Virus record (IMG/VR): IMGVR_UViG_2597489997_000001
Location: 128,001-192,000 of that record
Direction: 5' to 3' (one strand)
Source of the DNA: a virus
Lineage: Duplodnaviria; Caudoviricetes
Length of the DNA: 64,000 nucleotides
Part shown: positions 50,283 through 63,999 of the stretch, piece after piece
Layout of the letters: each line of letters starts with the position of its first letter
Numbering within the stretch: position 1 is the first letter of the stretch
Notes under the pieces: model-generated
The model's input: only the letters and a program-made list of their open reading frames with translations
Databases searched by the model: none
Told to the model about the DNA's origin: nothing
Translations under genes and position numbers: made by a program

Positions 50283-50319
50283 ACATAATAGAGAACCTAC
50301 CCATTACGGGTAGGTTCTC
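50282..50319 (-). repeat. 38-bp terminator-like hairpin element, copy 2 (inverted), between convergent transcription units
   Basis: Exact reverse complement of 35060-35097. Confidence 0.9.
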
Positions 50320-50345
50320 TAGTTTATAATCTATTCATTTTTTTT

Positions 50346-51869
50346 TTATGAGTCAATACCGACCTGTATTATCACATCTTGAGCAGGTCCGTTGTTCTCA
50401 CTCTCTTTAAAATTCAGTTGAGCGAGGTATGCGAGGAACCCTGTCGTGGGTATGTTAAACAATCCCATGGTCCTTATCCTGTATGGATCGCTCCACGGAA
50501 CATCGAGGAATACTGTTGCACCACTCGATGTATTAATGCTCCCAGAACCCGTTATCGGAGTTGGGCTTCCGTTCTTCGTTCTCTTCTGGTTTACAGTAAT
50601 CTGTAAAGAAGCAGACGTTGCACCCTTAGGAACATTGGCTGGGGTTACTACTGTACTCAATGGCTCAGGGGTGAAATTAACCACCACAGGGTTAAGGGTA
50701 TATTCCTTATTACCGGATTTAACCTTGAACACCACGCTGATTTTACCACCTGCAAATTTAGAGGAATAATCAAACGCATATACCCCTGAAGCAGGTGTAA
50801 CGGGATTCAGCCGTGTAGCAATGGAATCATAAACGTTTGTGTTCCCACTGACTACAGGTGTTGTCACAGCGGAAACAAATGTGACATCAGTAGCAGGAAC
50901 CCCATCTTGATCTACGATGGTTATCTTTCGTTCACCTACGGTGAACGTGTTCAGGCTTCCAGATTCTAATGTCGCTGATAATGTTCTCACAACTTGCTTA
51001 GCGATGTTGTAAGTAATGGTGGATGTTAGATTCCAAGTAACCCCTAGAACGGTATACTCGTAACTAAAAGTGACTTCTCTAGAAACAGCTTCGACGGAAT
51101 CATTAATCACCTCCCAAGCTCCAGTCTCTGGGGTAAAGTTAATATACTCGTCTGAAGCAGTTATGTTTTTAGCAGAAGCAGTTACGTTGGTTCCATTGTA
51201 GTTAGTTAAGACTAATGGGAAAGCTCCAGTATCCCCTAGTTTAACATCTATGGAAGATGGTGTTGCTGTTAAAACGGGCGGTAGTACAAATGTGTAAACA
51301 ACGGTTAATTGAGCATCGTAATAATTGAACTTCAGATTCCCACTGATACTCTCACCGGGATTAGGGTTAAAGTCAGGAGAGATTTTAAACTTAAGTTCTG
51401 ACGCGGTTTTGCCAGTGATATTAATGATACCGGAAGAATCGACTATTCCTAAGTCAAGACTATTGAGGTCTATTCTTTCCGTACCGTTCCAAAGAGTAAA
51501 CGGAATGGTGTATTCAACTGCTTTATCAAATCTCTCTATGGGTTCGGTAGAATCCATTTTAAAATCTGGCGGAGAAACCTCAACCTCTATACTGAGCGTT
51601 GATATGTCTTCACCCTCGACACCTTCCTCATGCCCGTCATATCCAAATGGGACCACTATCGTGTTGGTGCCAGTCGCGATACCCTTTATATGAAGATCTA
51701 TGTGTTTACCATCTTCGTTTATATCACCACCCGCGCCTTCGACGAGATCTTTGAAATCGACTTGGTCGTTGAGTGTCATAGTCTTATCTACAGCGTTCTT
51801 ACCCTCAAACAAAGCAGTAACTTGGAACATTACTGTTTGCCCTTGCAACAATGTTACTTTATTAGCCAT
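50346..51869 (-). CDS. Ig-like repeat virion protein; putative fibre tip (class-B acceptor, no donor tail)
   Basis: GAGGA RBS; N-term TL..G.....Q....FEGK...VEG; Big-like VDQDGVP motif. Confidence 0.7.
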   Translation of the reverse strand: MANKVTLLQGQTVMFQVTALFEGKNAVDKTMTLNDQVDFKDLVEGAGGDINEDGKHIDLHIKGIATGTNTIVVPFGYDGHEEGVEGEDISTLSIEVEVSPPDFKMDSTEPIERFDKAVEYTIPFTLWNGTERIDLNSLDLGIVDSSGIINITGKTASELKFKISPDFNPNPGESISGNLKFNYYDAQLTVVYTFVLPPVLTATPSSIDVKLGDTGAFPLVLTNYNGTNVTASAKNITASDEYINFTPETGAWEVINDSVEAVSREVTFSYEYTVLGVTWNLTSTITYNIAKQVVRTLSATLESGSLNTFTVGERKITIVDQDGVPATDVTFVSAVTTPVVSGNTNVYDSIATRLNPVTPASGVYAFDYSSKFAGGKISVVFKVKSGNKEYTLNPVVVNFTPEPLSTVVTPANVPKGATSASLQITVNQKRTKNGSPTPITGSGSINTSSGATVFLDVPWSDPYRIRTMGLFNIPTTGFLAYLAQLNFKESENNGPAQDVIIQVGIDS

Positions 51870-51917
51870 GGCGATTTCCTCGTTATGACTCCTGTGATAT
51901 ATCTCCGAAATAATGGG

Positions 51918-51927
51918 GACATAAAAT
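51918..51927 (-). promoter_or_regulatory. Putative late promoter (TATG core)
   Basis: ATTTTATGTC on the minus strand, same 10-mer as 25314. Confidence 0.45.
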
Positions 51928-51933
51928 CCTAAT

Positions 51934-51963
51934 AGGAGTATCTCCCAGATGGGAGATACTCCT
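51934..51963 (-). terminator. Hairpin terminator after the 230-aa gene
   Basis: AGGAGTATCTCCCA-GA-TGGGAGATACTCCT (perfect inverted repeat). Confidence 0.75.
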
Positions 51964-51971
51964 TAGTTATA

Positions 51972-52664
51972 TTACTGTACGAACTGAACGTCGAAGCGAT
52001 TAGTCGGAATTGACCCATCGTTAATGTTGGTGTTCAGAACAACATCTGCACGCAGGGTGTAATCAACACCATCGTGATTACCAACTACCAGCAGTTTAGC
52101 GGTTGCCGTAACAACTTCAGTAGTGGATGATGCGATAGATTTAAACGCAAAGTTACCTTCACCAACCACACCGCTGAACTCAAACTTATCCATAATTGCA
52201 TCTGGATCGACACTAACGCCGGTGATGGTGTTGGATATATCGTTCTCAGCTTCGCCTTCACCTTTAACAACTTTAAAGGTCAGAGGTTTACTTTCCCAAA
52301 GATCCATGGTAAGTGGAGTGGTAACATCGATCAAGCGAGCCAGAGGGGCGGCTGCGGTGATCGTAAGTGCTATGGTCTTCGTACTTTTACCATAGCCTTC
52401 CACATCGGAGTTAACCCCAGCATCAGCATATTTGAATACCACTGTTGCTTCTTGGGTACCTTCCAGTACACCAGTAAGTGGTACGTCAACAACACCAGCA
52501 CCGCCATCAACGAGAGCACCGATAGTAACCAGACCCTTGAGGTCAGAAGCATCGGAATCAACACTGATCTTATTCAGGGCAAATGTTTTCCCTTCAAAGG
52601 TAGGTTTGATTTGAAGAGATGCAACTGCTCCCACTTCCAATGTAAAGTCTTTGTCGGCCATCAT
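51972..52664 (-). CDS. Two-domain Ig-like protein; putative self-polymerising fibre subunit
   Basis: Class-B acceptor N-terminus and GSIPTNRFDVQF donor C-terminus; AGGAG RBS; hairpins on both sides. Confidence 0.7.
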   Translation of the reverse strand: MMADKDFTLEVGAVASLQIKPTFEGKTFALNKISVDSDASDLKGLVTIGALVDGGAGVVDVPLTGVLEGTQEATVVFKYADAGVNSDVEGYGKSTKTIALTITAAAPLARLIDVTTPLTMDLWESKPLTFKVVKGEGEAENDISNTITGVSVDPDAIMDKFEFSGVVGEGNFAFKSIASSTTEVVTATAKLLVVGNHDGVDYTLRADVVLNTNINDGSIPTNRFDVQFVQ

Positions 52665-52667
52665 TTT

Positions 52668-52692
52668 CTCCTGTTAGGGACCGAAGTCCCTA
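52668..52692 (-). promoter_or_regulatory. GGGAC-UUCG-GUCCC hairpin plus AACAGGAG RBS
   Basis: Same cassette as 7875-7910. Confidence 0.75.
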
Positions 52693-52697
52693 TTGTT

Positions 52698-55517
52698 TTA
52701 AAGGAACTCAATATTAAAACGAGTAGTAGGAATACCACCCGAGTTAGGACGAGTACTCAATTTCACCTCTGCGGGGAGATCGAATACATTACCTTCATGT
52801 GTAACCTTGAACATCAGTGAAGCATAGTTAACCTGCCATTTAACCGGGTCGGCTTTAACAGATTTGAAGCCCCATGATGTATCAGAGATTTTCACAAACT
52901 CAAACTGCTGTGAAATTTCAGATGCGTTAACACAAGTAATCTCAGTCAGTTCAGAGGTAATATCTTGGTCACCTGCTTTAATACTAAATACTAAAGGCGC
53001 GGTATCCCAAAGGTCCATCTCATAACTTCCAGTCAATCCTTCTAAATGAGGACCGGTGGAGTTACCGATGGTGTACTTAATCTGAACGTTATCAGACCAC
53101 TTCATCGCCTGTTCTGGAATACGGAAGGAGAATCTGAATTCACCAGTTGCGGTAGTCTCAGGGTCCTTCTTAATAGTCCAGGTACCATCAGGCGAAACAT
53201 CAATATAGTCGTTAGGTGTTACCGACCACTCAACGGTAGCGTCTGTCAGGTCAAGACCAGGAGTCATCCTGGAAGTCACTTTAACAGGAACCTTACCGCT
53301 GTCGCCATTAACCCCAGTGATTTCACCAATCACTTCAACAGTCGGTGATGGGTTAGTCGTTTGGTGAGAAACTTTCACATCGAAGCTAACAGTACGTTCA
53401 TGATAGGTAATCGTAAAGTTAGTGATTCTCGTGTTCATCCCCTGGTCAGGAACCCACAAGGATTTAATCGTGAACCCACCTTCGATATTCTTAACAATCT
53501 CCACTTCATCCGGTTTGTTTGTCGTAACAACTAAACCATCGGAAAACATACTGATTGTATCTGTCTCTGATGTCAGTTTAAGGGTGATGTCAACCTGGTC
53601 TCCGGTTTTAACGTAAACCTGAGGAATAACATCGTCTACAGTTAAACTACCCAAACAAACTACTGACGTTTTGACTTCTACACGGTCTTCACCAATAACA
53701 CCTGTTGGGCTTCCGCCATCACGATAGAAGTTGAAAGTAATATCACCGTAGCGGTTATTCTGGAGACCTTCTACAACTACGTCATAGCTTCCATTGTCCC
53801 CAGGACCCTGACCGACAATGCTAACATGACTAGGGACTGTTGAAGTTGGCTCATCAAGATGGATAGGAATGTCAGTTCCTTCACCATTTATCGTTGGGTA
53901 GAAATTAAGCGTTTTCTGCTCACCCACTCTGAGGTTAACCTTGCTATTCCCAATCACATCAAAGTTGACAGGAGGAATAACATTAACCTGACACATCACG
54001 TCGACCCATTGGACGATATTGCCTGTGGTGTTCCAGTCCTCATCAATGGTGAATTTGAATTGTCCCGATTCCCCAACATTGCTGGACTTAATTGTCCCAA
54101 CGTAAGTACCAGGCGCTCCTTCTTTAGGAACAAACTGAGTAATGATCTCAACACCCGGACCAGATTGTTGGAGAACCAACTCACCAACTACCGGCGCTGA
54201 AGAATTATTCAGTCGTTCTTGTTTAAGAGTAACTTCTACCTGGGTATCTTTATCTACGGTAATCGCGAGTGGTGTGACAGTAGATATGACCGCTTTACCT
54301 GGAGCACTGTAAGTCAGTGTATTCAAGGTGGTTTTGAAAGCACCCAAACTTACTTTAGGAGCAACAGTAAGTTCACATGCTACAGGACCTAAATCGACAG
54401 TCCAGTAATAACGACCAGGCGTACCCTCTACAGGGAAGAAGTTCCCACTGTCGCCCTGATTGGTACCAAACAGTGGCGTGACCTGAGCGTTTAATGAGCC
54501 GTCGTAGAGAAGACCAGAAACAGGAACATTATCCTGATCGACTACATCAAACTGAATGGTGTTCTTCTTAGAAGATTCCAGCTCAGTTGATCCGACAACC
54601 TTAGCAGTGAGGGTAATGGCTTTAACGTATTCGAATTCAAAACTGAACGGAACAGTTGGGTAAATAGATGCAGTACTGTCGTTGTTGTAAGTTCCACTGA
54701 CAGTAACTTTACCAACCTCACCAGTTGATTTAATACCGAAGCTATATGTACCAGGAGTTTCAGTATTGGTTATTTGCTGACCTAACGTCGCAGGACCTTC
54801 GAAACCAGTAATTCTAACTGTTCCCACAGCTGGGGAATTAGGATCACTCGAGATTGCTTTGGTTAAGGCAAGAGTGATATCAGTTACTTCATTCAGCACT
54901 GCTGGAGCTGAATTTGGTACTGGAGTTGCAACAACCAAGGTCCCAGGGTTATTAAAGACCATATCGTCCAGGACGTAGGAATCTGTCTTATCTGGAACGG
55001 TAACGGTGAGAGTTACCGTTATCGTACCGGTTGTTTCACCAGGAGTTACTACAATGTAGTAACGGCCAGGAGTGTTAGGGTCCTGGTATATCCCACTGCC
55101 GTAAGATGTTACGACCGATCCAGTTCTTGGGTTCGTCACAAGCTTGAAATCAACTTTAGTGGCGCCGATAACTGGATCACCATTACCATCTTTCAGAGTA
55201 AAGTAAAGCTGTACGCGCTCAAAGGGAGTAAGGTCTCCAGTTGTTTCCAACTCGTAGGTTAGGACGTACGTTTCGATATGCTTATGGGTTAATGATAAAG
55301 GAACAACAACACGATGCTTTCCTTTATATGTAAAAGTTAGGTTCGGTGTATAAACAGTATCCTGTTCCACATCACCGGTAAAGGAATACGTAATCGTATC
55401 CTCACCGATGTCGGAAATCTGGACCCCTGGGGTGGGGTCCAGTGTTATTACCATTTCAGGATCTTTGTTAGATATCACCGTACCATTAACACTAGCGGCT
55501 TGCTTAAGTGTTTTCAT
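52698..55517 (-). CDS. Multi Ig-like domain virion protein (class-A acceptor, class-B donor)
   Basis: Big-1/invasin-like D..G.PV.G...PG.Y motifs; N-term SNKDP...IGEDTITY; C-term GGIPTTRFNIEFL. Confidence 0.75.
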   Translation of the reverse strand: MKTLKQAASVNGTVISNKDPEMVITLDPTPGVQISDIGEDTITYSFTGDVEQDTVYTPNLTFTYKGKHRVVVPLSLTHKHIETYVLTYELETTGDLTPFERVQLYFTLKDGNGDPVIGATKVDFKLVTNPRTGSVVTSYGSGIYQDPNTPGRYYIVVTPGETTGTITVTLTVTVPDKTDSYVLDDMVFNNPGTLVVATPVPNSAPAVLNEVTDITLALTKAISSDPNSPAVGTVRITGFEGPATLGQQITNTETPGTYSFGIKSTGEVGKVTVSGTYNNDSTASIYPTVPFSFEFEYVKAITLTAKVVGSTELESSKKNTIQFDVVDQDNVPVSGLLYDGSLNAQVTPLFGTNQGDSGNFFPVEGTPGRYYWTVDLGPVACELTVAPKVSLGAFKTTLNTLTYSAPGKAVISTVTPLAITVDKDTQVEVTLKQERLNNSSAPVVGELVLQQSGPGVEIITQFVPKEGAPGTYVGTIKSSNVGESGQFKFTIDEDWNTTGNIVQWVDVMCQVNVIPPVNFDVIGNSKVNLRVGEQKTLNFYPTINGEGTDIPIHLDEPTSTVPSHVSIVGQGPGDNGSYDVVVEGLQNNRYGDITFNFYRDGGSPTGVIGEDRVEVKTSVVCLGSLTVDDVIPQVYVKTGDQVDITLKLTSETDTISMFSDGLVVTTNKPDEVEIVKNIEGGFTIKSLWVPDQGMNTRITNFTITYHERTVSFDVKVSHQTTNPSPTVEVIGEITGVNGDSGKVPVKVTSRMTPGLDLTDATVEWSVTPNDYIDVSPDGTWTIKKDPETTATGEFRFSFRIPEQAMKWSDNVQIKYTIGNSTGPHLEGLTGSYEMDLWDTAPLVFSIKAGDQDITSELTEITCVNASEISQQFEFVKISDTSWGFKSVKADPVKWQVNYASLMFKVTHEGNVFDLPAEVKLSTRPNSGGIPTTRFNIEFL

Positions 55518-55536
55518 GGTGACGATTTAATCCTTA

Positions 55537-58500
55537 TTAACTTGGGAGGACGGAACTCTGAGTTAAGGTTAAAGGATGGTCCTTATCGCCTTCACCAGAA
55601 GTTTGGAATCCTTCCGAGAGTACCAGAGCAACTGATGTACTTTGTTGTGTCACTGTTAATGGACGATTCACCACTTGCGCGGCATTAGTACCAATCTTCA
55701 TGCTATAATCAATAGAGGTTTGAACGACAGTTTCATCGAATACTTCCCCTTTGAATCTAACTTTGAAGCTCGTTGGGGTTAGAGAATTAGGAACCATTTC
55801 GATAGCTGCATTATCTTTAACAGTTACCGATACGACTCCATTATTATTGGTAGTTGAATTATCCAGAGTTAATGGGGAAGAGCCATAACGCATGTCAGCG
55901 TGAATTTCAATCTCATCACCAAAGACACCGGTGATGGCTGTTTCGGTCTGATTAACGTTAGTGGTGTTAGCGGTAAACGTAGTGATAGGGATGGTCAACA
56001 CTGCGTAATCCACACCTTCCACTGAACCCGTTGCACCCGTTCTGGTGAAGGATATGATATTTGGGATAGCTACTGAGTTGCCTGGCTGTATTGGGCAGTC
56101 GTATAACTTAGTGTCACCCATGAAGTTCACACCTTCAATGGATTTGATATTGCCAGCCACCAGAATTTCCTTAACGGTAAATCCAGGGTTGCTAGATATC
56201 TTCTCACCTCTGTACCAGCCACTGACATTTATCCTTGCTGTTCCGCCTGCGGCCACAGTAACGTCACCACGAGGTGTGCCCGGGTTCATCAATTTAAGAA
56301 TGAACTCGGCACCGTCGTATTCAGCAATATTAAAGGTACCCGATGCATTACGAACAACACTATCGCCAGTGAGCTGATAAGTGAAGTCGGTAAGAACGGA
56401 AGTAGCCGGAATCTCAGTCGAGGAAGTGATTAACCAACCCGCATCTTTCTGAACAACATGGTCATTAGGAACAACCTTCAGATTAGTTACACGGCTAGTA
56501 AGATCAGTGGTTCCTTCCATTACTTTAAATGGAGGGGTGGTTCCAAAATCCCAAACTTTAACGCCCACAGGTGCATCAGTTACAGTAAGGTTATACTCTC
56601 TAACGACTGGAGCGGTTACTGTGAATGGATACTTCCAATTACCCTCATCAGTAATCGTCCCTGTGATCACTGCGTTCCCACTTGTCACCAGATCAAGGAT
56701 GATCCCGTAATATCCATTCTCATCCAATGCCAGTAACCCGGCGTTACTACCACCTGTTACAGTAATTCCACTGAGAGTCCCATTAGGGAACGTATACGGT
56801 GCTTCCACCCCATAGCGTTTCTGATCAAGTTTGAACTTGACCGTTACCTGATGGTTTTCATCTGCGGTGTAAGAAGGTGCATCTAACGTAGGTGTGACTG
56901 GAGATTTAGGTACGACAATGGTCGTATCCAATGACACTCTACCGCCTGAGTTTGGAGAGGTAACGGCACCTTTCAAGTTTAAGGTGTCTCCAGTATGCCC
57001 TGCGGTAAATTTCAATATCAGTCCATCAGCATCGTCAGGGTCATTAATGACACTATAACCTTCAGAAGCAATCATCGCATTACCATTACTCGGAGCCGGT
57101 ATAAGTTTAGGGTTATACACTACAGGTGTTGTTAATGCGGTAGAACCAACCCGTAGTTTGAACTTAAGCTCATTCTGAGTTGCCGGTGTGGCAGTAACTG
57201 TTTCAGATGTTACAGCTATCCCTAAATTTCCTGATGTGGCATAAACCCAGAAGTTAGAGTCGGTAGCTGGAGGCGGTGATGGTGTCCAATCCTTACTACC
57301 TTCAGGGGTACTATAGTACGCTCTAATCGGGTTGAAATACCCCTCAGTCCCTCCGAGGGTTGGTCTGGTGATTCTACCCCATACAGTGGTTCCTGTTCCA
57401 CCCACCCATTCCCAGGCTATGTTACCATTGGTGTTACCGGTCGCCTGACCAAAAATACTGTACATCGTAAGTTTGGTGTCTTCTAGCGGGATTCTAACAC
57501 CGTTAAGAATTGCGTAGACTATCGCTGCCGGACCAGTCCTTGATCCGCTCCTCATGTATGTAACTTCGTTTTGCCGACCAGTGAAACACCAACCAACGTT
57601 ATACATGCTGAGATAGTCACCGTTAATGAATCCAAGATCGGATGACCTGGTAACAACATCTTTACCTTCAACTGTTCCCGGAGTACCCTTAACCTTATAC
57701 TTAACACCAGTGAGTGTTAAAGGCGTTGCCTGCTTATTAGGTGATGCATGAGTAGCTCTAGCCCTAAGCGTTATTGTCAGTGTTTTATTATCTTCGGAGG
57801 CTTCTTGTTTAACTAAGGTAGTGTATCCACCCAAGGTTCCGCCAAGATCTGACAATTCAACTTTATCTGCGGCAGGTTTGCCTTTATATATAGGATAAAC
57901 TATAAAGGTTGTATCCTGAGCGATGGAGGCTCCGATCACCTCAGTAGGTTTAATGATTTCTAAAGTGACCCCATTCCAAGCAGCCAACTTAAAGGTAGCA
58001 GTTACCTGAGAGGTGAACTCTTTACCATCAACCTCAAAGGTCAGGTTAAATGTGGTCTTAACGTCACGAGCCGTTGTTTCGGCTGTTTCAACATACCACA
58101 GTTTTCCACCTTCGGTATCCGCAGTGATGTAAGTGTTAGGGACCATCTCAACTTTCTTGAGTTTGTCACTAGCATCTTCGCCGGCTGCGTTGGTGATGGT
58201 AAATGGTAATTCATCACCAGACTGCCAGATAGAAGTGGAGATAGGTTTGTCGGTGTAAACCAGATCTTTAATCAGGTTAGGTTGAACAGTAACATTGATA
58301 TCCATGGTGTCAGATTTACCGCCATAAGTGACAGTCATCTTAACAGGATAGCTCGTTTCCTGAAGAACCTCTTTGATTATCTTACACGTTACATCGGTAT
58401 CAGTTAAGAAACCTTTGCGCTCCAGGATATCGGCCGGAGCAAACGTATAAGTGATCCCAGTTGTAGCTGGTTTCAGTTCAGCGCCATTCCAGGTCAACTG

Positions 58501-61116
58501 GATAGGGATGTTAACGTCTTTGGTTTCAACCCCAGTGACATCTTGAGATTCAGGTGTTACTGCAAGAACATCATCCCATACCTCAACTTCTGGTAACCAC
58601 GCATCCCAGTTTAGATGTTTGGTATTGGCAGGGTAGCCCCAGTTATTGGCGGCTTTAACCGCAATAGACGGGTGGTGGGTACCGACTGTCTTACCAACGA
58701 TATTGATACGGCGGCCTTCACTGAGACCATATGGCATTACTTCATAAAGAACACCACCATCCGCTCCATTGGAGTTGGATGGATCTGGAGGACTGAGTGT
58801 GTCACTAGTAGCATCTTTGCCGCGATCAGTAATGACCACATTCAACATGCTGTTCTGACCAACCTTAAGTCTGAGTTTCTCCCAACGATCGACAGAGTTC
58901 GCATGAGGGCTCATCTTGAAGGCAACACCATCCCAGGCCGGAAGGTTGAATGTACCTGTTCCACTGTAGTCAGTATTGACACCGTCCACCACTAACTTAA
59001 AGTTAAATGTAACCTGAGTGGATTTAGGTGCAGTGTCAGCATAAAGAACAGCCCATGCCTTTTTGTTCACAGCAGGGGAGGTATCTGGTTTAACATAATC
59101 GTTAGCCGTTACCTTAAGTTCCGTTATCTGGGAAGTTACATCTGTTCCAGCCAACGTCACTGTAAACGGAGGAACATCACCCATCTGCCACATCGCTACC
59201 GTAATTGGGTTGTCAGTGATGACAGGAACAATCTTACTTGCTCTGAGCTTAAACTCAACAACCTGAGTCTCCCCAATCGGATACTGAACTTTCATGGAAA
59301 CACTAACGTCTCCAAGTTCACCCATACCTTTAGCATTAAAGCTATAAGTACCGTCTTCCGTTTCCTTAACAGGAGAGGTGTCGGTGGTGAAGCCTTTACC
59401 TGTAACAGTAAGTTCGGTAATTTCAATGGCGTTAATAGGAGTGGTGACTGCTCCCTGTTCCTGGGTTAACTTAAAGATAACCTTAGTCACAGAGTTGTTA
59501 AAGTAGTTGATCTTATTATCAGTAGGTGTTGCTACAAATGGGGAAGCTTCAACAATAACTGGAGTAAAGGTTCCCGGTACTGAAGCGTAACCCGTACCTT
59601 CACCATTCTTACCTTGTTTTGGTGAGACCATTCCAACTATTTCAAATCGGAATTTCTTATACGGCATCACAGGTAGGTCGATTTGGACCACACCTTGCTG
59701 GTTAGCAGTATGCCCACCAAAGGTAATGTCTTCACCAATTTTAGCGTCAGTTGCTACATCATAGAGACGTCCAACAAGACCATCGGACTTAGCCCCATTA
59801 ACAGTCCACAGAGGACCTTCCCCATAAGTAGGTTGAGACAGTTTCAATCTCAAGGATTGCGCTACGTTAGGAGTTATAGGGTCAAGCAATTCCATTGGAA
59901 TAGAAGAAGGGGTTAATGCAAATACAGTAACACCACCTGCTATACCAATACTCGGATTATCGTCTACCGCGTAAGTGGCTTTCCATAAGAAACCAACATC
60001 TTTAGCGATAGGTCCATTTAAACGTACAGTCCACGAGTTCCCGCTCTTACCCACAATGGTGATGTTTGGAGGAGTACTCGGGTCAGATGCACTTACTGAC
60101 ACTGTCAGTGTCAGGTTAGCATTCCCATTAGGAATGGCGGCGCCCTTATACGTGATTACTGGCGATACCAAAATAGTATCTCCAGCATTACCGCTCAGCA
60201 AACGTTCATATGTGTTAGGGAATTGAATACTCAACCCAGTTCCAGTATCTACCAGACACAGGACCCCGAACTGAGTTAACAGCTCGCCTTGTGTATCTCT
60301 GACAACTACGTTCTTTCTACTATTACTGATATCAGTGAAAGTCATTGAGACTTTTCTAGCATCATCGCCTACTACAACGTCAGTAGCACCAGATACGCCA
60401 TTACCAGGTTGATTCAGTAGCGCGGTGTCAGTAACGTATTCTGAAGGGTTAACCAGGATATTTCTTTTATAAAGGGAATAAGTAAATTCACCGGACTGGT
60501 TTACCGAGCTAATTACTGGAGTGTCATTCCCACCATGGATGCGTGCCTCGTAATCGGCTTTCGTCCATTTCTTAATGGTAACAGGAACATCTGCGGTTAA
60601 CGTATATGGTTTACCTGCGTGTGTACCTGATACTGTAAATTTGAATGTGCTTACTACGTCATCGCTATCAGCAGTGATGGCGGTGAACATCATGTTATTT
60701 GTTTTTGCGAGATAACTGGTATGAGTACCAGCATTATCAACGATACTATCAATAGCGAATCCGGAAGTAAGATCCCGGCCAGAGACCGGGAGAATTACTC
60801 GGAACGGTGCTTGATAGGCTGAGCCTGCCTCGACTTCGATCGGTTTGACTTCTACGATAGTAGGTTCTTCAGCTAATGCCCGCTGAACGATATTCAGCGG
60901 GACTTCATAGCTAATGAGACCCATGTACGTAAAGGTCAAGTTGAGCGAGTACGTTGCGTCTTCATCCGGGAATCCATTAAAGCCGTAGGTGATAGTATCT
61001 TCACCGATTTCCTTAATGAACACGTTCGGGTTGGACTCAAGTACTATAACAAGGTTTGGATCCTTGTTGCTCAACTTTTTACCGTCAACCATCAGGCTTT
61101 GTTTCATCTTAGCCAT
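55537..61116 (-). CDS. Giant multi Ig-like domain virion protein (class-A acceptor and donor)
   Basis: 1859 aa, T/V/G-rich; repeated ..W..G..PF.V....D.T and VEG.D domains. Confidence 0.8.
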   Translation of the reverse strand: MAKMKQSLMVDGKKLSNKDPNLVIVLESNPNVFIKEIGEDTITYGFNGFPDEDATYSLNLTFTYMGLISYEVPLNIVQRALAEEPTIVEVKPIEVEAGSAYQAPFRVILPVSGRDLTSGFAIDSIVDNAGTHTSYLAKTNNMMFTAITADSDDVVSTFKFTVSGTHAGKPYTLTADVPVTIKKWTKADYEARIHGGNDTPVISSVNQSGEFTYSLYKRNILVNPSEYVTDTALLNQPGNGVSGATDVVVGDDARKVSMTFTDISNSRKNVVVRDTQGELLTQFGVLCLVDTGTGLSIQFPNTYERLLSGNAGDTILVSPVITYKGAAIPNGNANLTLTVSVSASDPSTPPNITIVGKSGNSWTVRLNGPIAKDVGFLWKATYAVDDNPSIGIAGGVTVFALTPSSIPMELLDPITPNVAQSLRLKLSQPTYGEGPLWTVNGAKSDGLVGRLYDVATDAKIGEDITFGGHTANQQGVVQIDLPVMPYKKFRFEIVGMVSPKQGKNGEGTGYASVPGTFTPVIVEASPFVATPTDNKINYFNNSVTKVIFKLTQEQGAVTTPINAIEITELTVTGKGFTTDTSPVKETEDGTYSFNAKGMGELGDVSVSMKVQYPIGETQVVEFKLRASKIVPVITDNPITVAMWQMGDVPPFTVTLAGTDVTSQITELKVTANDYVKPDTSPAVNKKAWAVLYADTAPKSTQVTFNFKLVVDGVNTDYSGTGTFNLPAWDGVAFKMSPHANSVDRWEKLRLKVGQNSMLNVVITDRGKDATSDTLSPPDPSNSNGADGGVLYEVMPYGLSEGRRINIVGKTVGTHHPSIAVKAANNWGYPANTKHLNWDAWLPEVEVWDDVLAVTPESQDVTGVETKDVNIPIQLTWNGAELKPATTGITYTFAPADILERKGFLTDTDVTCKIIKEVLQETSYPVKMTVTYGGKSDTMDINVTVQPNLIKDLVYTDKPISTSIWQSGDELPFTITNAAGEDASDKLKKVEMVPNTYITADTEGGKLWYVETAETTARDVKTTFNLTFEVDGKEFTSQVTATFKLAAWNGVTLEIIKPTEVIGASIAQDTTFIVYPIYKGKPAADKVELSDLGGTLGGYTTLVKQEASEDNKTLTITLRARATHASPNKQATPLTLTGVKYKVKGTPGTVEGKDVVTRSSDLGFINGDYLSMYNVGWCFTGRQNEVTYMRSGSRTGPAAIVYAILNGVRIPLEDTKLTMYSIFGQATGNTNGNIAWEWVGGTGTTVWGRITRPTLGGTEGYFNPIRAYYSTPEGSKDWTPSPPPATDSNFWVYATSGNLGIAVTSETVTATPATQNELKFKLRVGSTALTTPVVYNPKLIPAPSNGNAMIASEGYSVINDPDDADGLILKFTAGHTGDTLNLKGAVTSPNSGGRVSLDTTIVVPKSPVTPTLDAPSYTADENHQVTVKFKLDQKRYGVEAPYTFPNGTLSGITVTGGSNAGLLALDENGYYGIILDLVTSGNAVITGTITDEGNWKYPFTVTAPVVREYNLTVTDAPVGVKVWDFGTTPPFKVMEGTTDLTSRVTNLKVVPNDHVVQKDAGWLITSSTEIPATSVLTDFTYQLTGDSVVRNASGTFNIAEYDGAEFILKLMNPGTPRGDVTVAAGGTARINVSGWYRGEKISSNPGFTVKEILVAGNIKSIEGVNFMGDTKLYDCPIQPGNSVAIPNIISFTRTGATGSVEGVDYAVLTIPITTFTANTTNVNQTETAITGVFGDEIEIHADMRYGSSPLTLDNSTTNNNGVVSVTVKDNAAIEMVPNSLTPTSFKVRFKGEVFDETVVQTSIDYSMKIGTNAAQVVNRPLTVTQQSTSVALVLSEGFQTSGEGDKDHPLTLTQSSVLPS

Positions 61117-61149
61117 TAGTTACAGTTCCTTTATTACAGGGTTGCTAGT

Positions 61150-63999
61150 TTAAGCGGATACTGATTGCTTAACCGTAGCAGGGTGATATACGTCACCAAT
61201 GACGTCAGTCTCGAAATCATCGGAAGGAGTTAAGGTTGCCGGGAGTATACGAACGTTGAGTGTTACGTCAGCGAAGTCACTACCCTCGATAGCGTTACCT
61301 GAATCCACGATAGCTTTAACTCTAACTGTGATGTCTTCAGTACCAACAACATCGCCAGTGTAAGTCAAGAGCAGACCATCGTCAGTTGCTTTCTCTACCT
61401 TGGTAACGGTGATAATACCTTTACCATCAATAGTAGCAATGTCGACAGTTGTATCAGGGTACAGTTTGCCATCACCAAAAGATCCGCCGATGTGAATCTG
61501 ACCGGTCTTACCTACAACTCCTACGCTGTCTTCGGCGACAGGTTTCAGGAGCTTACCGTTCCAACCCTTGACAGTGAACTTCACAGTTTGCTTCAAGGTT
61601 ACCAGGTCAATACCAGTACCATAGGTAACGGTAAATTCTGGCATCACGGTACTTTCTGCCGTGGCTGCATCGTAGACTTCCCAAGTGTTACCTTCGCCTT
61701 TACGTACGTAGCTATTGGCGGAGATCCCAGTGAGAGTACAATCAGCAGTAATATCATTTCCTTTGAACATTACTTTAAATGGCAGTTCGCCTTTATCCCA
61801 GATCTTAGCTACAACGTCTTGGACGTCAGTAATTTCTGGAGTCGCAGCTGGTTGCTGGGTCACTGACAGGTCAAACTTCCCACTATAAATAGGTGGAGTT
61901 TTCGCCGCTACTGTTGTTGATATAACAGTGTGAACCGCAGAATCGACATCTGCCAAGAATCTGACTTTAAAACTATCGACTTTACCAGAACCCGGCACAT
62001 ATTCGATAACCCCAGCTGGTAAGAACGTAATTCCATTTTTCGCTTCAGAGTAATCCAGCCTTGTGTTACTGGTGTAACCAATCACATTAACAGTAAGTTC
62101 GTCACCCAACTTACCAGTGACAGCATTAGGTCCCTCTATGAAGATGTATGCAGGGCTGCTGTATATACTTATCGGTACTCGTATTTTAGCCTGCTGTTTA
62201 GGATCGGTAGAGCCAGTTACCTTAGCTGTAACATCAATCCAAGAAGCAGCATGGGCATTCCTATTCGGAGTGAATTGGTAAATCAACGCCGGACCAGTAC
62301 CAGCATACACAGTAGGACCTGACATCGATCCTCCCTGACCTAACGCGACATGAGTTAATGAGGAAACAGGTTCTCCTTTATAGATACCGGCCACTCTCAA
62401 TGTTGCATTATTCCCACCGCCACTGGAAACCGCCATGGTGTTTCCGTTGTTTCCATCTCCGGTCACTCTCAAGACTAATTCAATTCCATCATACTTCCCG
62501 ATGTTGAACAGAACTTTTTGAGTCGGAGACTTCGTTACTTTACCGCTATTAACAGTAATGGTGTAGGTTACTTCCTCAGTCACTGCCTGTGTTTGATCAC
62601 CAGCAATAATCTTCCATGGCTTAGTGATTAGAGGACCAGCCTCAACACGGTTGTTAGGAGACACCACAGAAATACCAGTAATCCATTTAGCTGGAATCTC
62701 ATTACCACCAATCGCAGTTTTCACTTTGAATGGTAATTCAGTACCTTTATCCCAAACCTTCCCATCGATAGATTTAACATCAGTGACAATGAAGTTACCA
62801 TCCCAAGCTTTCAGATGGAACGTTACATCAGTACTGAGGTTAACTGCGGAAGCACCAGAAGGAACAGACACAGTCATCTTAACTACGACATCTGTATCAG
62901 CTGCTGGAGCATTCAGCACTTGCCATTTACCATCTACCAGACCAATGTAATCATTGGCTGAAATAGTGGTCAATGTCACAGTTGATGTTTTATCAACACC
63001 ATCTAAAGTCACTTTGAATGGCAGAGGTCCAGTATCACCCAGAGACGCGGTGACTTCCTGAACATCTTCTACTTCTGGGAAAGTGATGTTACTGATCTGA
63101 GTAGCAGCAACAGTGAACCATGCGAACTTATCTTCACCACCGACTTTACCAAACCCGATAAGAGCATCCTTGGTTATCTTAGGATCGGTAGTCAGCTCGC
63201 TTTCGAACCAAACGCTAATTTGGGTGGTAGTTACGTTGGCACCATTACTGGTGATCAACGGTCCTTTAACCCAGCTCGCACCACCATGTGTCAGGACAAC
63301 AGGGGTGAGTCCGTAGCGGATAGAGAATGCTAACGGATACTTCAGCGCATTGGTAGGTGAGTAACGACCTTCTACAGCAGTTGGTTGTACCACGTCAGTA
63401 CGAGGGTAATACTTGTCGGAATAATACACGTAGCAAGGGAGTTTAACCTTCACGTAGTCAACGTTCTCAACTGCGTTTGGATCATTCTCTTTGCTCAGTA
63501 ACCCGAACAGGAAATACCCGTCCTCGCTCGCCATCATATCCGTAGCGCCTGCTGTAGTGTACACAGGTTGGAATGACGGACTAGCTCCGGCTCCGGCACC
63601 TTGCAGTTTCAGGGTATGACCAGGCATGGTTATGTTTTTAGCCCAGACGCCGTACTTAACGCCTAGGTCAGCAGCGACCATTGCTCTGGTACGATAGGAC
63701 CCTTTAACGTAGAAAGTACCTTGAGCGCCAACGGTAGTAACCATCCCACCATTAAACGCATTAGGGGTATGGAGTTCAACCGCAAACTCTTTACCGTCAT
63801 ATGGCCTGATGGTAAACTGACTGGTTACCTCAAGAGTGACATCTTTAAATCCATCATTAAACACAGCAATAAACGTAACTGGCGTAACTACCCCAGCGGC
63901 CGTACCGTTGTATACTTCCCAGACGACAGTTCTAGGGTTTGCTGGATTATAATCAGGGTTTGTTCTGACATAATCATTTTGTTTAACGGTAACTGATTT
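61150..63999 (-). CDS. Giant multi Ig-like domain virion protein, 5'-truncated by the window edge
   Basis: Frame stays open upstream of 63864 to the window end (KSVTVKQNDYVRTNPDY...WEVYNG); same repeat types; class-A donor C-terminus. Confidence 0.8.
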   Translation of the reverse strand, partial: KSVTVKQNDYVRTNPDYNPANPRTVVWEVYNGTAAGVVTPVTFIAVFNDGFKDVTLEVTSQFTIRPYDGKEFAVELHTPNAFNGGMVTTVGAQGTFYVKGSYRTRAMVAADLGVKYGVWAKNITMPGHTLKLQGAGAGASPSFQPVYTTAGATDMMASEDGYFLFGLLSKENDPNAVENVDYVKVKLPCYVYYSDKYYPRTDVVQPTAVEGRYSPTNALKYPLAFSIRYGLTPVVLTHGGASWVKGPLITSNGANVTTTQISVWFESELTTDPKITKDALIGFGKVGGEDKFAWFTVAATQISNITFPEVEDVQEVTASLGDTGPLPFKVTLDGVDKTSTVTLTTISANDYIGLVDGKWQVLNAPAADTDVVVKMTVSVPSGASAVNLSTDVTFHLKAWDGNFIVTDVKSIDGKVWDKGTELPFKVKTAIGGNEIPAKWITGISVVSPNNRVEAGPLITKPWKIIAGDQTQAVTEEVTYTITVNSGKVTKSPTQKVLFNIGKYDGIELVLRVTGDGNNGNTMAVSSGGGNNATLRVAGIYKGEPVSSLTHVALGQGGSMSGPTVYAGTGPALIYQFTPNRNAHAASWIDVTAKVTGSTDPKQQAKIRVPISIYSSPAYIFIEGPNAVTGKLGDELTVNVIGYTSNTRLDYSEAKNGITFLPAGVIEYVPGSGKVDSFKVRFLADVDSAVHTVISTTVAAKTPPIYSGKFDLSVTQQPAATPEITDVQDVVAKIWDKGELPFKVMFKGNDITADCTLTGISANSYVRKGEGNTWEVYDAATAESTVMPEFTVTYGTGIDLVTLKQTVKFTVKGWNGKLLKPVAEDSVGVVGKTGQIHIGGSFGDGKLYPDTTVDIATIDGKGIITVTKVEKATDDGLLLTYTGDVVGTEDITVRVKAIVDSGNAIEGSDFADVTLNVRILPATLTPSDDFETDVIGDVYHPATVKQSVSA

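What the first reader, a model, noticed from the sequence alone, without database searches (positions are those of the whole stretch)
50346..63999. Ig-like gene chain with matched C-terminal donor and N-terminal acceptor ends: candidate pilus-like phage fibre built by strand complementation
Seen: five consecutive minus-strand Ig-repeat genes, each with its own stop codon; the four whose 5' ends lie in the window have their own RBS. The first four end with what is, internally, the beginning of a domain, and the next gene begins with the remainder. Class A: ...F(E/Q)T...GD..HP.T..QS* (61150 and 55537 ends) is followed by M...KQ...V.G..(L/I)SNKDP..VI.L...P.V.I..IGEDTITY.F.G (61116 and 55517 starts). 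Class B: ...G.IPT.RF...F* (52698 and 51972 ends; internal equivalents YDGAEFILKL, WDGVAFKMS, YDGKEFAVEL) is followed by M..K..TL..G.....Q....FEGK...VEG (52664 and 51869 starts). The order is X-(A)-1859aa-(A)-939aa-(B)-230aa-(B)-507aa, and the last gene has no donor. Established: donor-strand complementation links Ig-fold subunits in chaperone-usher pili (N-terminal donor) and type V pili (C-terminal donor). Inference: these proteins form a gene-order-collinear fibre with a two-class connector code, with 939aa as an A-to-B adaptor and 507aa as the tip. I am not aware of this being described for phage virion fibres.
Basis: partly seen in the sequence, partly recalled or inferred. Interest (0 to 1): 0.9.

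Follow-up and report, generated by a model that had tools for sequence, protein, structure and literature searches.

The report
Split-domain connectors in phage fibre genes
Five neighbouring genes of a giant phage encode strings of antibody-like domains, and each gene is cut one or two strands into a domain at a conserved 'plug and socket' sequence, which suggests, without proving, that the proteins snap together end to end into one long fibre.

Summary
Five minus-strand genes (4079, 1859, 939, 230 and 507 aa; the first runs past the window) are built of three recurring Ig-like domain types. Each gene boundary falls one to three strands into a domain. Both end classes recur in all 9 related jumbo-phage genomes examined. 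The class B C-terminal motif occurs 45 times in the 58 proteins held, always 3-4 residues from the end. The class A junction also exists unsplit inside five relatives' giant genes, so its two halves form one domain in cis. The ends are the best conserved parts: 43% against 17% pairwise identity for class A tails. AlphaFold2 models the 230-aa protein at pLDDT 89 but leaves its invariant last 18 residues without structure.

Two corrections. In class A, both genes carry the same strand (8-9 residues overlap). The sockets lack N-terminal edge strands, not a core strand, so no pilus-like groove is shown.

End-to-end assembly by strand donation is my best reading (0.6). It would be a new variant of a known principle. 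The scan holds another first-reader note on this same stretch; its follow-up is withheld.

The parts
61150..63999 (-). G1, first gene of the chain; window holds its last 949 codons. Full length 4079 aa, start at contig 201389 (window-equivalent 73389). Its N-terminal 220 aa form a conserved non-Ig module, a candidate virion anchor; the body is Ig-like super-repeats.
   Evidence: N-terminal module 60-64% identical in 7 relatives
61153..61230 (-). Class A donor tail of G1 (last 26 aa, ..DDFETDVIGDVYHPATVKQSVSA)
55537..61116 (-). G2, 1859 aa: class A acceptor at the N-terminus, Ig-like body (W domains at 86, 631, 951, 1509), class A donor at the C-terminus
60877..61116 (-). Class A acceptor (N-type domain, residues 1-80 of G2). 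By alignment to the cis domain it begins at the third strand.
55540..55617 (-). Class A donor tail of G2 (last 26 aa, ..GFQTSGEGDKDHPLTLTQSSVLPS)
52698..55517 (-). G3, 939 aa: class A acceptor at the N-terminus, class B donor at the C-terminus (A-to-B adaptor)
55278..55517 (-). Class A acceptor (residues 1-80 of G3)
52701..52757 (-). Class B donor tail of G3 (last 19 aa, ..NSGGIPTTRFNIEFL)
52675..52692 (.). Short stem-loop (GGGAC-TTCG-GTCCC on the coding strand) in the G3-G4 spacer, just before the G4 ribosome-binding site; role unknown
51972..52664 (-). G4, 230 aa: class B acceptor domain, one W domain, class B donor tail. It is the best conserved chain member (51-76% identity in 24 database homologues).
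52350..52664 (-). Class B acceptor domain of G4 (residues 1-105). By alignment it starts at the second strand; the first strand of cis homologues is absent.
51975..52028 (-). Class B donor tail of G4 (residues 213-230, NINDGSIPTNRFDVQFVQ): nearly invariant, without secondary structure in the monomer model
51934..51963 (.). 13-pair stem-loop in the 102-nt G4-G5 spacer; role unknown. It was scored as terminator-like only on the + strand, which is not the coding strand.
50346..51869 (-). G5, 507 aa: class B acceptor at the N-terminus, Ig-like throughout, no donor tail (last member or cap)
51570..51869 (-). Class B acceptor domain of G5 (residues 1-100)
50289..50321 (-). Terminator-like hairpin (15 pairs, T-rich tail) right after G5: end of the five-gene unit

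Best explanation
The five genes encode consecutive segments of one long, flexible fibre or adhesin of a phiKZ-related jumbo phage. Only G1 carries the conserved N-terminal module that probably fixes the fibre to the virion (inferred). G2 to G5 have no such module. Each begins with an Ig-like domain that lacks its own first strand or strands, and those strands are encoded at the 3' end of the upstream gene. After separate translation, the C-terminal tail of each protein is proposed to add onto the truncated first domain of the next protein as an edge strand or hairpin (beta-sheet augmentation, strand donation in trans). This would rebuild the domain that is continuous in unsplit homologues and join the proteins in gene order: G1-(A)-G2-(A)-G3-(B)-G4-(B)-G5. 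Two or three connector types act as a grammar, and modules with matching ends are interchangeable between phages. Shown: gene structure, domain grammar, position and conservation of the ends, existence of fused equivalents, and an unstructured conserved tail in the G4 model. Inferred: physical docking, its specificity, virion location and the anchor role.
For: 1. Splits lie inside domains. By hmmalign to five naturally fused junctions, class A donors cover the first part of the N-type domain and the acceptors supply the rest. In the AlphaFold2 model of a cis N-type domain of G2, the segment that I align by hand to the donor forms strands 16-19, 22-28 and 32-41, with block pLDDT 79-91. 2. Class B acceptors start just after the cis first-strand columns in 9 of 9 cases. 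3. The ends are the most conserved parts. Class A tail 43% against body 17% mean pairwise identity (12 sequences). Class B tail 54% against 34% (13 sequences), or 49% against 31% for the 8 non-G4 donors. Acceptor A domain 51.5% against 23% for the next domain (11 sequences). Nucleotide identity between the window's own paralogous junctions is only 52% and 47%, so conservation is at protein level. 4. Position rule. The B-donor pattern occurs 45 times in 58 proteins, always 3-4 residues from the C-end. In an all-against-library HMMER search, 26 of 30 hits match the W-plus-tail part and all 26 end within 2 residues of the C-terminus; 2 more match the acceptor domain, starting at residues 1 and 4. 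The A-acceptor motif sits at residue 14-15 in 22 proteins. 5. The G4 model has pLDDT 89.4, yet the nearly invariant last 18 residues have no secondary structure and pLDDT falls to 75 and 62. That is what a tail waiting for a partner would look like. 6. The 45 proteins with a pattern-matched B tail begin with a class A acceptor (18), a class B acceptor (24) or the anchor module (2); the one exception, P0033 (105 aa), starts inside a W domain. Minimal 201-202 aa adaptors exist. 7. In Aeromonas phage LAh10, three adjacent large genes, and more distantly a fourth, each carry their own anchor-like N-terminus and have no connectors. So a protein has either an anchor or a socket. 8. A preprint on phage Goslar reports head-to-tail filaments anchored at the baseplate, so end-to-end fibres exist in this phage family (section 12 read).
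Against: Models come without coordinates, so I could not see an open edge or groove. The acceptor domain of G4 is modelled confidently without a donor, so it may not need one. Class A junctions carry the same strand twice, which simple complementation does not predict. In Kc263, pEt-SU and SXP01 the last chain gene ends with a B tail and no B acceptor follows; a protein search in Kc263 and SXP01 found no other acceptor. In SXP01 an A donor is followed by a third acceptor type. The cis W-K boundary in my G2 model has pLDDT below 50, so whether the class B donor strand belongs to the downstream domain is not shown structurally. I saw no virion proteomics. The N1M2 paper reports no visible tail fibres by EM (passages), while the Kc263 paper mentions a tail 'with visible fibers' (passages).
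Confidence: 0.6

Rival explanations
1. Plain gene fission without docking. A giant Ig-repeat gene was cut several times, and the pieces act as separate soluble or separately attached proteins. The terminal fragments are leftovers.
For: Fused and split states of the same junction both exist. The number and place of cuts differ between relatives. The G4 acceptor domain is modelled as well folded on its own.
Against: Leftover partial-domain tails should decay. Instead they are the best conserved segments and keep a strict terminal position. G2-G5 have no other conserved module that could attach them to anything. A cut for independent pieces would be expected between domains, not after the first strand or strands of the next one.
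Confidence: 0.15
2. The conserved ends bind something other than each other. For example, each socket domain docks to a virion site or to the G1-type anchor, and the tails bind a chaperone, the host surface or another phage protein.
For: In three relatives the last gene ends with a B tail that has no downstream socket. The B tail TNINDGSIPTNRF is far more elaborate than the WDG turn at the cis W-K boundary.
Against: Class A donor and acceptor are two parts of one domain in five unsplit homologues. An HMM of the B acceptor finds only G4 and G5 in the whole contig. Donor and matching acceptor are adjacent, in that order, at 4 of 4 junctions in the window. Among the relatives I noted one exception, the SXP01 A donor followed by a C-type acceptor.
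Confidence: 0.12
3. Recoding. Ribosomes bypass the stop and spacer, taking off at the donor copy of the TL.Q strand and landing at the acceptor copy. This would give some continuous giant protein, and the duplicated strand would be the take-off and landing pair.
For: Class A (and class C in relatives) show a duplicated peptide on both sides of a short spacer of 19-33 nt in the window.
Against: The two copies use different codons (ACC TTA ACT CAG against ACA CTT AAA CAA at G2>G3). Each downstream gene has its own Shine-Dalgarno box and ATG. Class B has no duplication. Conservation is at amino-acid level, not nucleotide level. No test was run.
Confidence: 0.03
4. The conserved ends are DNA-level recombination linkers that let phages swap fibre modules, as proposed for conserved boxes in T-even tail-fibre genes (recalled, not checked).
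For: Module content between the connectors differs strongly between relatives, while the connectors stay.
Against: Paralogous junction cassettes in the window share only 52% (218 of 417 columns) and 47% (168 of 358) nucleotide identity, with at most 70% in any 30-column block. That is too low for homologous exchange. This role would not exclude docking.
Confidence: 0.05

Closest known systems
Type V pili of Bacteroidia (FimA/Mfa1 type), strand exchange with a C-terminal donor (recalled knowledge, not checked in a call)
   Same: The donor is the C-terminal end of one Ig-like subunit. It would fill the place of an N-terminal strand of the next subunit, giving a head-to-tail polymer with adaptor and tip subunits.
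   Different: In type V pili the N-terminal strand is removed by a protease from a lipoprotein precursor outside the cell. Here the strand is simply encoded in the upstream gene. The proteins start MADK.. or M.TLKQ.., which does not look like a lipoprotein signal peptide (by eye; no signal-peptide predictor was run). Subunits are up to 4079 aa of tandem domains, assembly would be cytoplasmic in an infected cell, and there is no sequence relation.
Chaperone-usher pili, donor-strand complementation (recalled knowledge)
   Same: An Ig-like subunit is completed by a strand from its neighbour, and tip and adaptor subunits follow an ordering code.
   Different: There the missing strand is the C-terminal core strand G, the donor is an N-terminal extension, and a chaperone and usher are needed. 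Here the missing strands are N-terminal, the donor is C-terminal, and the socket protein is modelled as folded on its own.
DUF7941 filaments of chimalliviruses (Goslar gp22/gp23, PhiKZ gp126/gp127); preprint 10.64898/2026.04.21.720040, section 12 read
   Same: Same broad phage family. An N-terminal module shared by several proteins is followed by variable host-recognition parts. Head-to-tail assembly occurs by docking a flexible region of one protomer on the N-terminal domain of the next. The fibres are proposed to hang from the peripheral baseplate.
   Different: Those are small globular protomers in hundreds to thousands of copies. Here the proteins are Ig-repeat proteins joined at split Ig domains. 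Pfam gives no hit for the G1 N-terminal module, so kinship is not shown.
T4 long tail fibre (gp34-gp35-gp36-gp37) (recalled knowledge)
   Same: Adjacent genes in fibre order encode consecutive segments of one fibre joined non-covalently end to end.
   Different: The T4 fibre is built of trimeric beta-structured rods and needs chaperones. Here no tail-fibre family is detected and the domains are Ig-like, with generic tandem-Ig matches only.
Titin Z1Z2-telethonin and other beta-sheet augmentation links between Ig domains
   Same: Ig domains are tied together by intermolecular strand pairing at their N-terminal ends. Titin Z1Z2 chains are the top Foldseek PDB matches of the G4 model.
   Different: The match is generic tandem Ig (TM 0.28-0.34, 12-14% identity). 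Telethonin is a separate cross-linking protein, not a tail of the neighbouring subunit.

Membership tests
Chaperone-usher pilus subunits | Ig-like fold lacking its C-terminal (G) strand, leaving a core groove | tested here: not met
   Acceptors lack N-terminal strands only. The G4 model is confident through its last domain strand, 200-212. A groove could not be inspected because no coordinates are returned.
Chaperone-usher pilus subunits | N-terminal extension acts as donor strand | tested here: not met
   The conserved dangling segment is C-terminal (45 of 45 B motifs lie 3-4 aa from the C-end). N-termini are part of the modelled domain (strand 5-11, pLDDT 86).
Chaperone-usher pilus subunits | Dedicated periplasmic chaperone and outer-membrane usher | not tested
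   Pfam on the five chain proteins gave no pilus-family hit. The rest of the contig was not scanned for PapD or usher families.
Type V pilins | C-terminal strand or strands donated into the site of the neighbour's N-terminal strand | tested here: inconclusive
   The topology fits: a C-terminal tail and N-terminal strands missing.
Type V pilins | Lipoprotein precursor whose N-terminal strand is removed by a protease | tested here: not met
   The proteins begin MMADKD, MKTLKQ, MAKMKQ and MANKVT, with no signal or lipobox-like stretch by eye. The missing strand is encoded by the upstream gene instead.
Bacterial Ig-like domain families (Big_1, Big_2, invasin D3) | Pfam match above the gathering score | tested here: not met
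   The best hit is Invasin_D3 in G3, 20.9 bits against a cut-off of 33; the others are weaker. The fold is Ig-like by Foldseek. Atlas leads to Big_1 and invasin score below 0.9.
Chimallivirus DUF7941 fibre proteins | N-terminal DUF7941 module detectable by profile | tested here: inconclusive
   No Pfam hit for the G1 N-terminal 220 or 560 aa, the 200-aa paralogue or the 711-aa protein, even at E up to 10. I do not know whether this Pfam copy holds the DUF7941 model.
T4-type long tail fibre | Recognisable tail-fibre domains | tested here: not met
   No PHROG or Pfam tail-fibre family was found. Oligomeric state was not tested.

The most novel reading that the evidence does not exclude
The connectors are a general plug-and-socket grammar that lets this phage clade build fibres of variable make-up. 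The 230-aa protein G4, with a B socket and a B plug on one small, highly conserved body, would be a self-polymerising, pilin-like subunit. It would form a homopolymer stretch of open length between the adaptor G3 and the cap G5, and it ends the chain in phages that lack a G5-type gene. The duplicated strand at class A junctions would be a self-cap on the socket that the incoming donor hairpin displaces (strand exchange without protease or chaperone). A covalent lock, an isopeptide between conserved Lys/Glu of the socket and Asn/Asp of the plug, is a further untested possibility.
Probability: 0.2. Interest if true: 0.85.

Novelty: new variant of a known kind. Interest (0 to 1): 0.7.

Why it matters
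If the ends dock as proposed, this would be a virus-encoded fibre assembled by strand donation between Ig-like subunits. That principle is so far tied to bacterial pili. Here the code is readable from gene ends alone: anchor, A socket or B socket at the N-terminus; A plug, B plug or nothing at the C-terminus. It would explain how jumbo phages make very long adhesive fibres from separately translated pieces. It would also explain how such fibres are reshuffled between phages with different hosts. And it would offer small natural plug-and-socket pairs for protein engineering. It gives annotation rules for a set of orphan giant genes now labelled hypothetical in every relative I looked at.

Tried and rejected
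Read-through of the stops was rejected: there are additional in-frame stops or a frame change at every junction.

Pfam and PHROGs on the five proteins and their neighbours gave nothing above threshold.

The G2 model covering one N-W-K super-repeat (A2, 12 rows) gave good N and W domains. The W-K boundary and the K domain were below pLDDT 50, so it says nothing on class B topology.

The search for related loci with G4 alone found nothing. With an alignment it found 3 IMG/VR loci, and one has the contig length of pEt-SU.

HMM alignment of class B donors to cis junctions was messy because of the longer loop, so the donor side of class B rests on alignment by eye.

Donor-acceptor covariation was not pursued. 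The two ends lie about 100 bp apart, so linkage alone would give it.

The isopeptide idea got no support or test. The socket Lys20 is invariant in G4 orthologues but replaced in G5-type sockets, and the plug Asp/Asn is Lys in some donors.

Complex prediction gave no verdict (see below). Literature searches for strand complementation or donor strand together with phage fibres and Ig-like domains listed no such description among the top rows (listings only). This is not proof of absence. Supplements are closed, and virion proteome tables there may bear on virion presence.

Full report
What is there. The window is bases 128001-192000 of a single 284,757-bp contig. By protein similarity it belongs with phiKZ-related jumbo phages of 253-277 kb: Pantoea Survivor, Serratia Yubaba and Sureiya, Kosakonia Kc263, Edwardsiella pEt-SU, Klebsiella N1M2, Erwinia AH04 and Shewanella SXP01 (12 records, all below 60% identity). 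On the minus strand lie five consecutive genes. G1 is 4079 aa and is cut by the window end. G2 is 1859 aa, G3 939 aa, G4 230 aa and G5 507 aa. The spacers are 33, 19, 33 and 102 nt, and each downstream ATG has its own Shine-Dalgarno-like box. Extra in-frame stops or a frame change exclude read-through. Terminator-like hairpins stand before G1 and after G5. Pfam and PHROGs give nothing above threshold.

Domain grammar. Iterated HMM searches on these proteins and on those of the seven relatives define three recurring Ig-like domain types. W has a 'WD..PF' signature and ends F.x..(W/Y)DG; 106 copies were found. K follows W and has the signature '..YKGKP'. N has the signature 'LNDP.L.IT'; 70 hits were found. 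N-W-K super-repeats of about 310 aa recur along the giant proteins. Foldseek places my two models among generic tandem Ig and cadherin-like structures.

Where the genes are cut. Class A junctions (G1>G2, G2>G3) lie inside an N domain. Five relatives carry the same junction unsplit inside a giant gene (N1M2, SXP01, Yubaba, Survivor, pEt-SU). Of 17 donor-HMM hits, 12 are at a C-terminus and 5 are internal, and each internal one runs straight into acceptor-type sequence. I aligned donors and acceptors to these fused versions. Donors cover the columns up to '..P.TL.QSV.L' and acceptors begin at 'TTLKQ'. The two halves therefore overlap by 8-9 columns. In the AlphaFold2 model of a cis N domain of G2, the segment I align by hand to the donor forms strands 16-19, 22-28 and 32-41, with block pLDDT 79-91. 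So a class A tail corresponds to the first three strands of the next domain, and the acceptor repeats the third.

Class B junctions (G3>G4, G4>G5) lie at the W-K boundary. All 9 acceptors aligned start right after the roughly 9-column first-strand segment of 35 cis junctions, with no overlap. The donor is that strand (RFDVQF, RFNIEF), preceded by an enlarged, nearly invariant loop (TN.NDGSIPTN) in place of the cis 'WDG' turn. A third junction type in Yubaba, N1M2 and SXP01 cuts a W domain in the same manner, again with an overlap.

How regular it is. All 9 related genomes seen (7 named, 2 IMG/VR) have the chain and the same ends, although the number of genes and the cut points differ. G4 has 24 homologues of 51-76% identity in 5.8 billion proteins. 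In the HMMER scan of 1.84 billion representatives, 26 of 30 hits match the W-plus-tail part. All 26 end within 2 residues of the protein's C-terminus. Two more hits match the acceptor domain and start at residues 1 and 4. A B-tail pattern matches 45 times in the 58 proteins held, always 3-4 residues from the end. The A-acceptor motif sits at residue 14-15 in 22 proteins. Of the 45 proteins with a pattern-matched B tail, 18 begin with an A acceptor, 24 with a B acceptor and 2 with the G1-type N-terminal module. The exception is P0033 (105 aa), which starts inside a W domain. There are minimal adaptors of 201-202 aa: an A acceptor domain, one W domain and a B tail. The pattern matches the tail of P0055 only; P0054 has a variant tail. 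An HMM of the B acceptor finds only G4 and G5 in the whole contig.

Conservation. The ends are the most conserved parts of otherwise fast-evolving proteins:
- Class A tails show 43% mean pairwise identity against 17% for the preceding ~125 residues (12 sequences).
- Class B tails show 54% against 34% (13 sequences), or 49% against 31% without the G4 orthologues (8 sequences).
- The acceptor A domain shows 51.5% against 23% for the following W domain (11 sequences).
Paralogous junction cassettes within the window share only 52% and 47% nucleotide identity. The constraint is therefore on the protein.

Structure of G4. With 24 homologues, AlphaFold2 gives pLDDT 89.4. The model has two beta domains (strands 5-103 and 109-212). 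The last 18 residues (NINDGSIPTNRFDVQFVQ) have no secondary structure, and pLDDT falls to 75 and then 62. A segment that is nearly invariant yet not part of the protein's own fold fits a docking tail. The same model shows the acceptor domain folded with confidence, beginning at strand 5-11. By alignment, what it lacks is the first strand of the cis domain. I take that to be an edge strand from general Ig topology, not from the model. The tools return no coordinates, so I could not look for an open edge or groove.

Anchor. Only G1 has the 220-aa N-terminal module. It is 60-64% identical in the seven relatives and about 32% identical in Aeromonas jumbo phages (31 records). A 200-aa gene elsewhere in the contig shares it, and a 711-aa gene has a more distant version. 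In Aeromonas phage LAh10, three adjacent large genes, and more distantly a fourth, each carry their own copy and have no connectors. So in these phages a fibre protein starts either with the anchor module or with a socket. That is what a chain model predicts.

Reading. The most economical explanation is that the five proteins join in gene order by donating their C-terminal strand or strands to the truncated first domain of the next protein. A plain fission without docking would not keep partial-domain tails as the best conserved parts, nor cut after the first strands of a domain each time. I put this reading at 0.6 because binding was not tested.

Points against or unexplained:
- The duplicated strand at class A junctions.
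- A B tail with no downstream socket in Kc263, pEt-SU and SXP01, where the G4 homologue is last. This invites the idea that G4 polymerises on itself.
- An A donor followed by a third socket type in SXP01, where the two genes look like tandem duplicates with the same kinds of ends.
- The low-confidence cis W-K boundary.
- No virion data. The N1M2 paper saw no tail fibres by EM (passages), while the Kc263 paper mentions visible fibres (passages).

Comparison with known systems. The topology (a C-terminal donor replacing N-terminal strands) is nearer to type V pili than to chaperone-usher pili. It differs from both by having no protease, chaperone or secretion step and by its giant multi-domain subunits (both comparisons recalled, not checked). 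Gene-order fibres are known from the T4 long tail fibre (recalled). The closest published idea in this phage family is the head-to-tail DUF7941 filament model for Goslar and PhiKZ (preprint 10.64898/2026.04.21.720040, section 12 read). I could not show kinship to it. Three literature searches listed no description of split Ig domains as fibre connectors in phages. The papers on N1M2, Kc263, ZPAH34 and the Erwinia phages RisingSun and Joad were checked by term search only and do not discuss these genes.

Verdict. The connector grammar is well supported by comparative data. The assembly mechanism is plausible but unproven, and the pilus-like 'groove' detail is not supported. It is a new variant of a known principle, and worth a bench test.

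Noticed in passing
contig 200730-201389 (G1 residues 1-220; locus L021:11730-12389), contig 215289-215894, contig 205349-207544: A ~200-aa N-terminal module (..V.KDP.F.PV...L..RI..LE..) heads G1 and a stand-alone 200-aa gene; a 711-aa gene has a more distant version. It is 60-64% identical in the relatives and ~32% in Aeromonas jumbo phages. In phage LAh10, three adjacent large genes, and more distantly a fourth, each carry one. It is a candidate virion anchor. No Pfam or PHROG hit.
   Followed up: partly
window 52675-52692 and 51934-51963: Stem-loops in the G3-G4 spacer (UUCG-type tetraloop just before the G4 ribosome-binding site) and in the G4-G5 spacer (13 pairs). They might set the relative amounts of G4 and G5.
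   Followed up: no
L007:7913-12484 (Shewanella phage SXP01 record): An open frame of about 1520 codons between two annotated chain genes carries no CDS in the record. Its N- and C-terminal ends are of the same kinds as those of the gene before it, which has a similar length (likely a tandem duplicate). It probably starts at a GTG.
   Followed up: partly
L003:7355-7970 and L003:14263-14451 (Klebsiella phage N1M2 record): The second chain gene is annotated from 7970 although the frame is open from 7355 and begins like the third socket type. After the B-tailed gene only a 62-aa CDS is annotated, so the cap gene may be lost or truncated.
   Followed up: no
contig 201509-205348 (locus L022:112-3867): A 1252-aa gene sits between the 711-aa anchor-type gene and G1. 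Its reading frame opens at the base right after the stop of the 711-aa gene. In AH04 and Kc263 the homologous 716-722-aa gene is followed directly by the giant gene. Whether it is another attached module was not examined.
   Followed up: no
BFVD rows: Entries G9IA95 (507 aa), G9IA97 (939 aa) and G9IA98 (two pieces of 930 and 929 aa) have the lengths of G5, G3 and G2. They may be the same proteins in a public record; the record is not named here.
   Followed up: no
protein P0035 (3635 aa) and P0037 (4123 aa): Giant proteins that start with the anchor module and end with the B tail. P0035 contains a G4-like K+W unit fused in cis. So some relatives run from anchor to B plug in one gene, with no class A cut.
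   Followed up: partly
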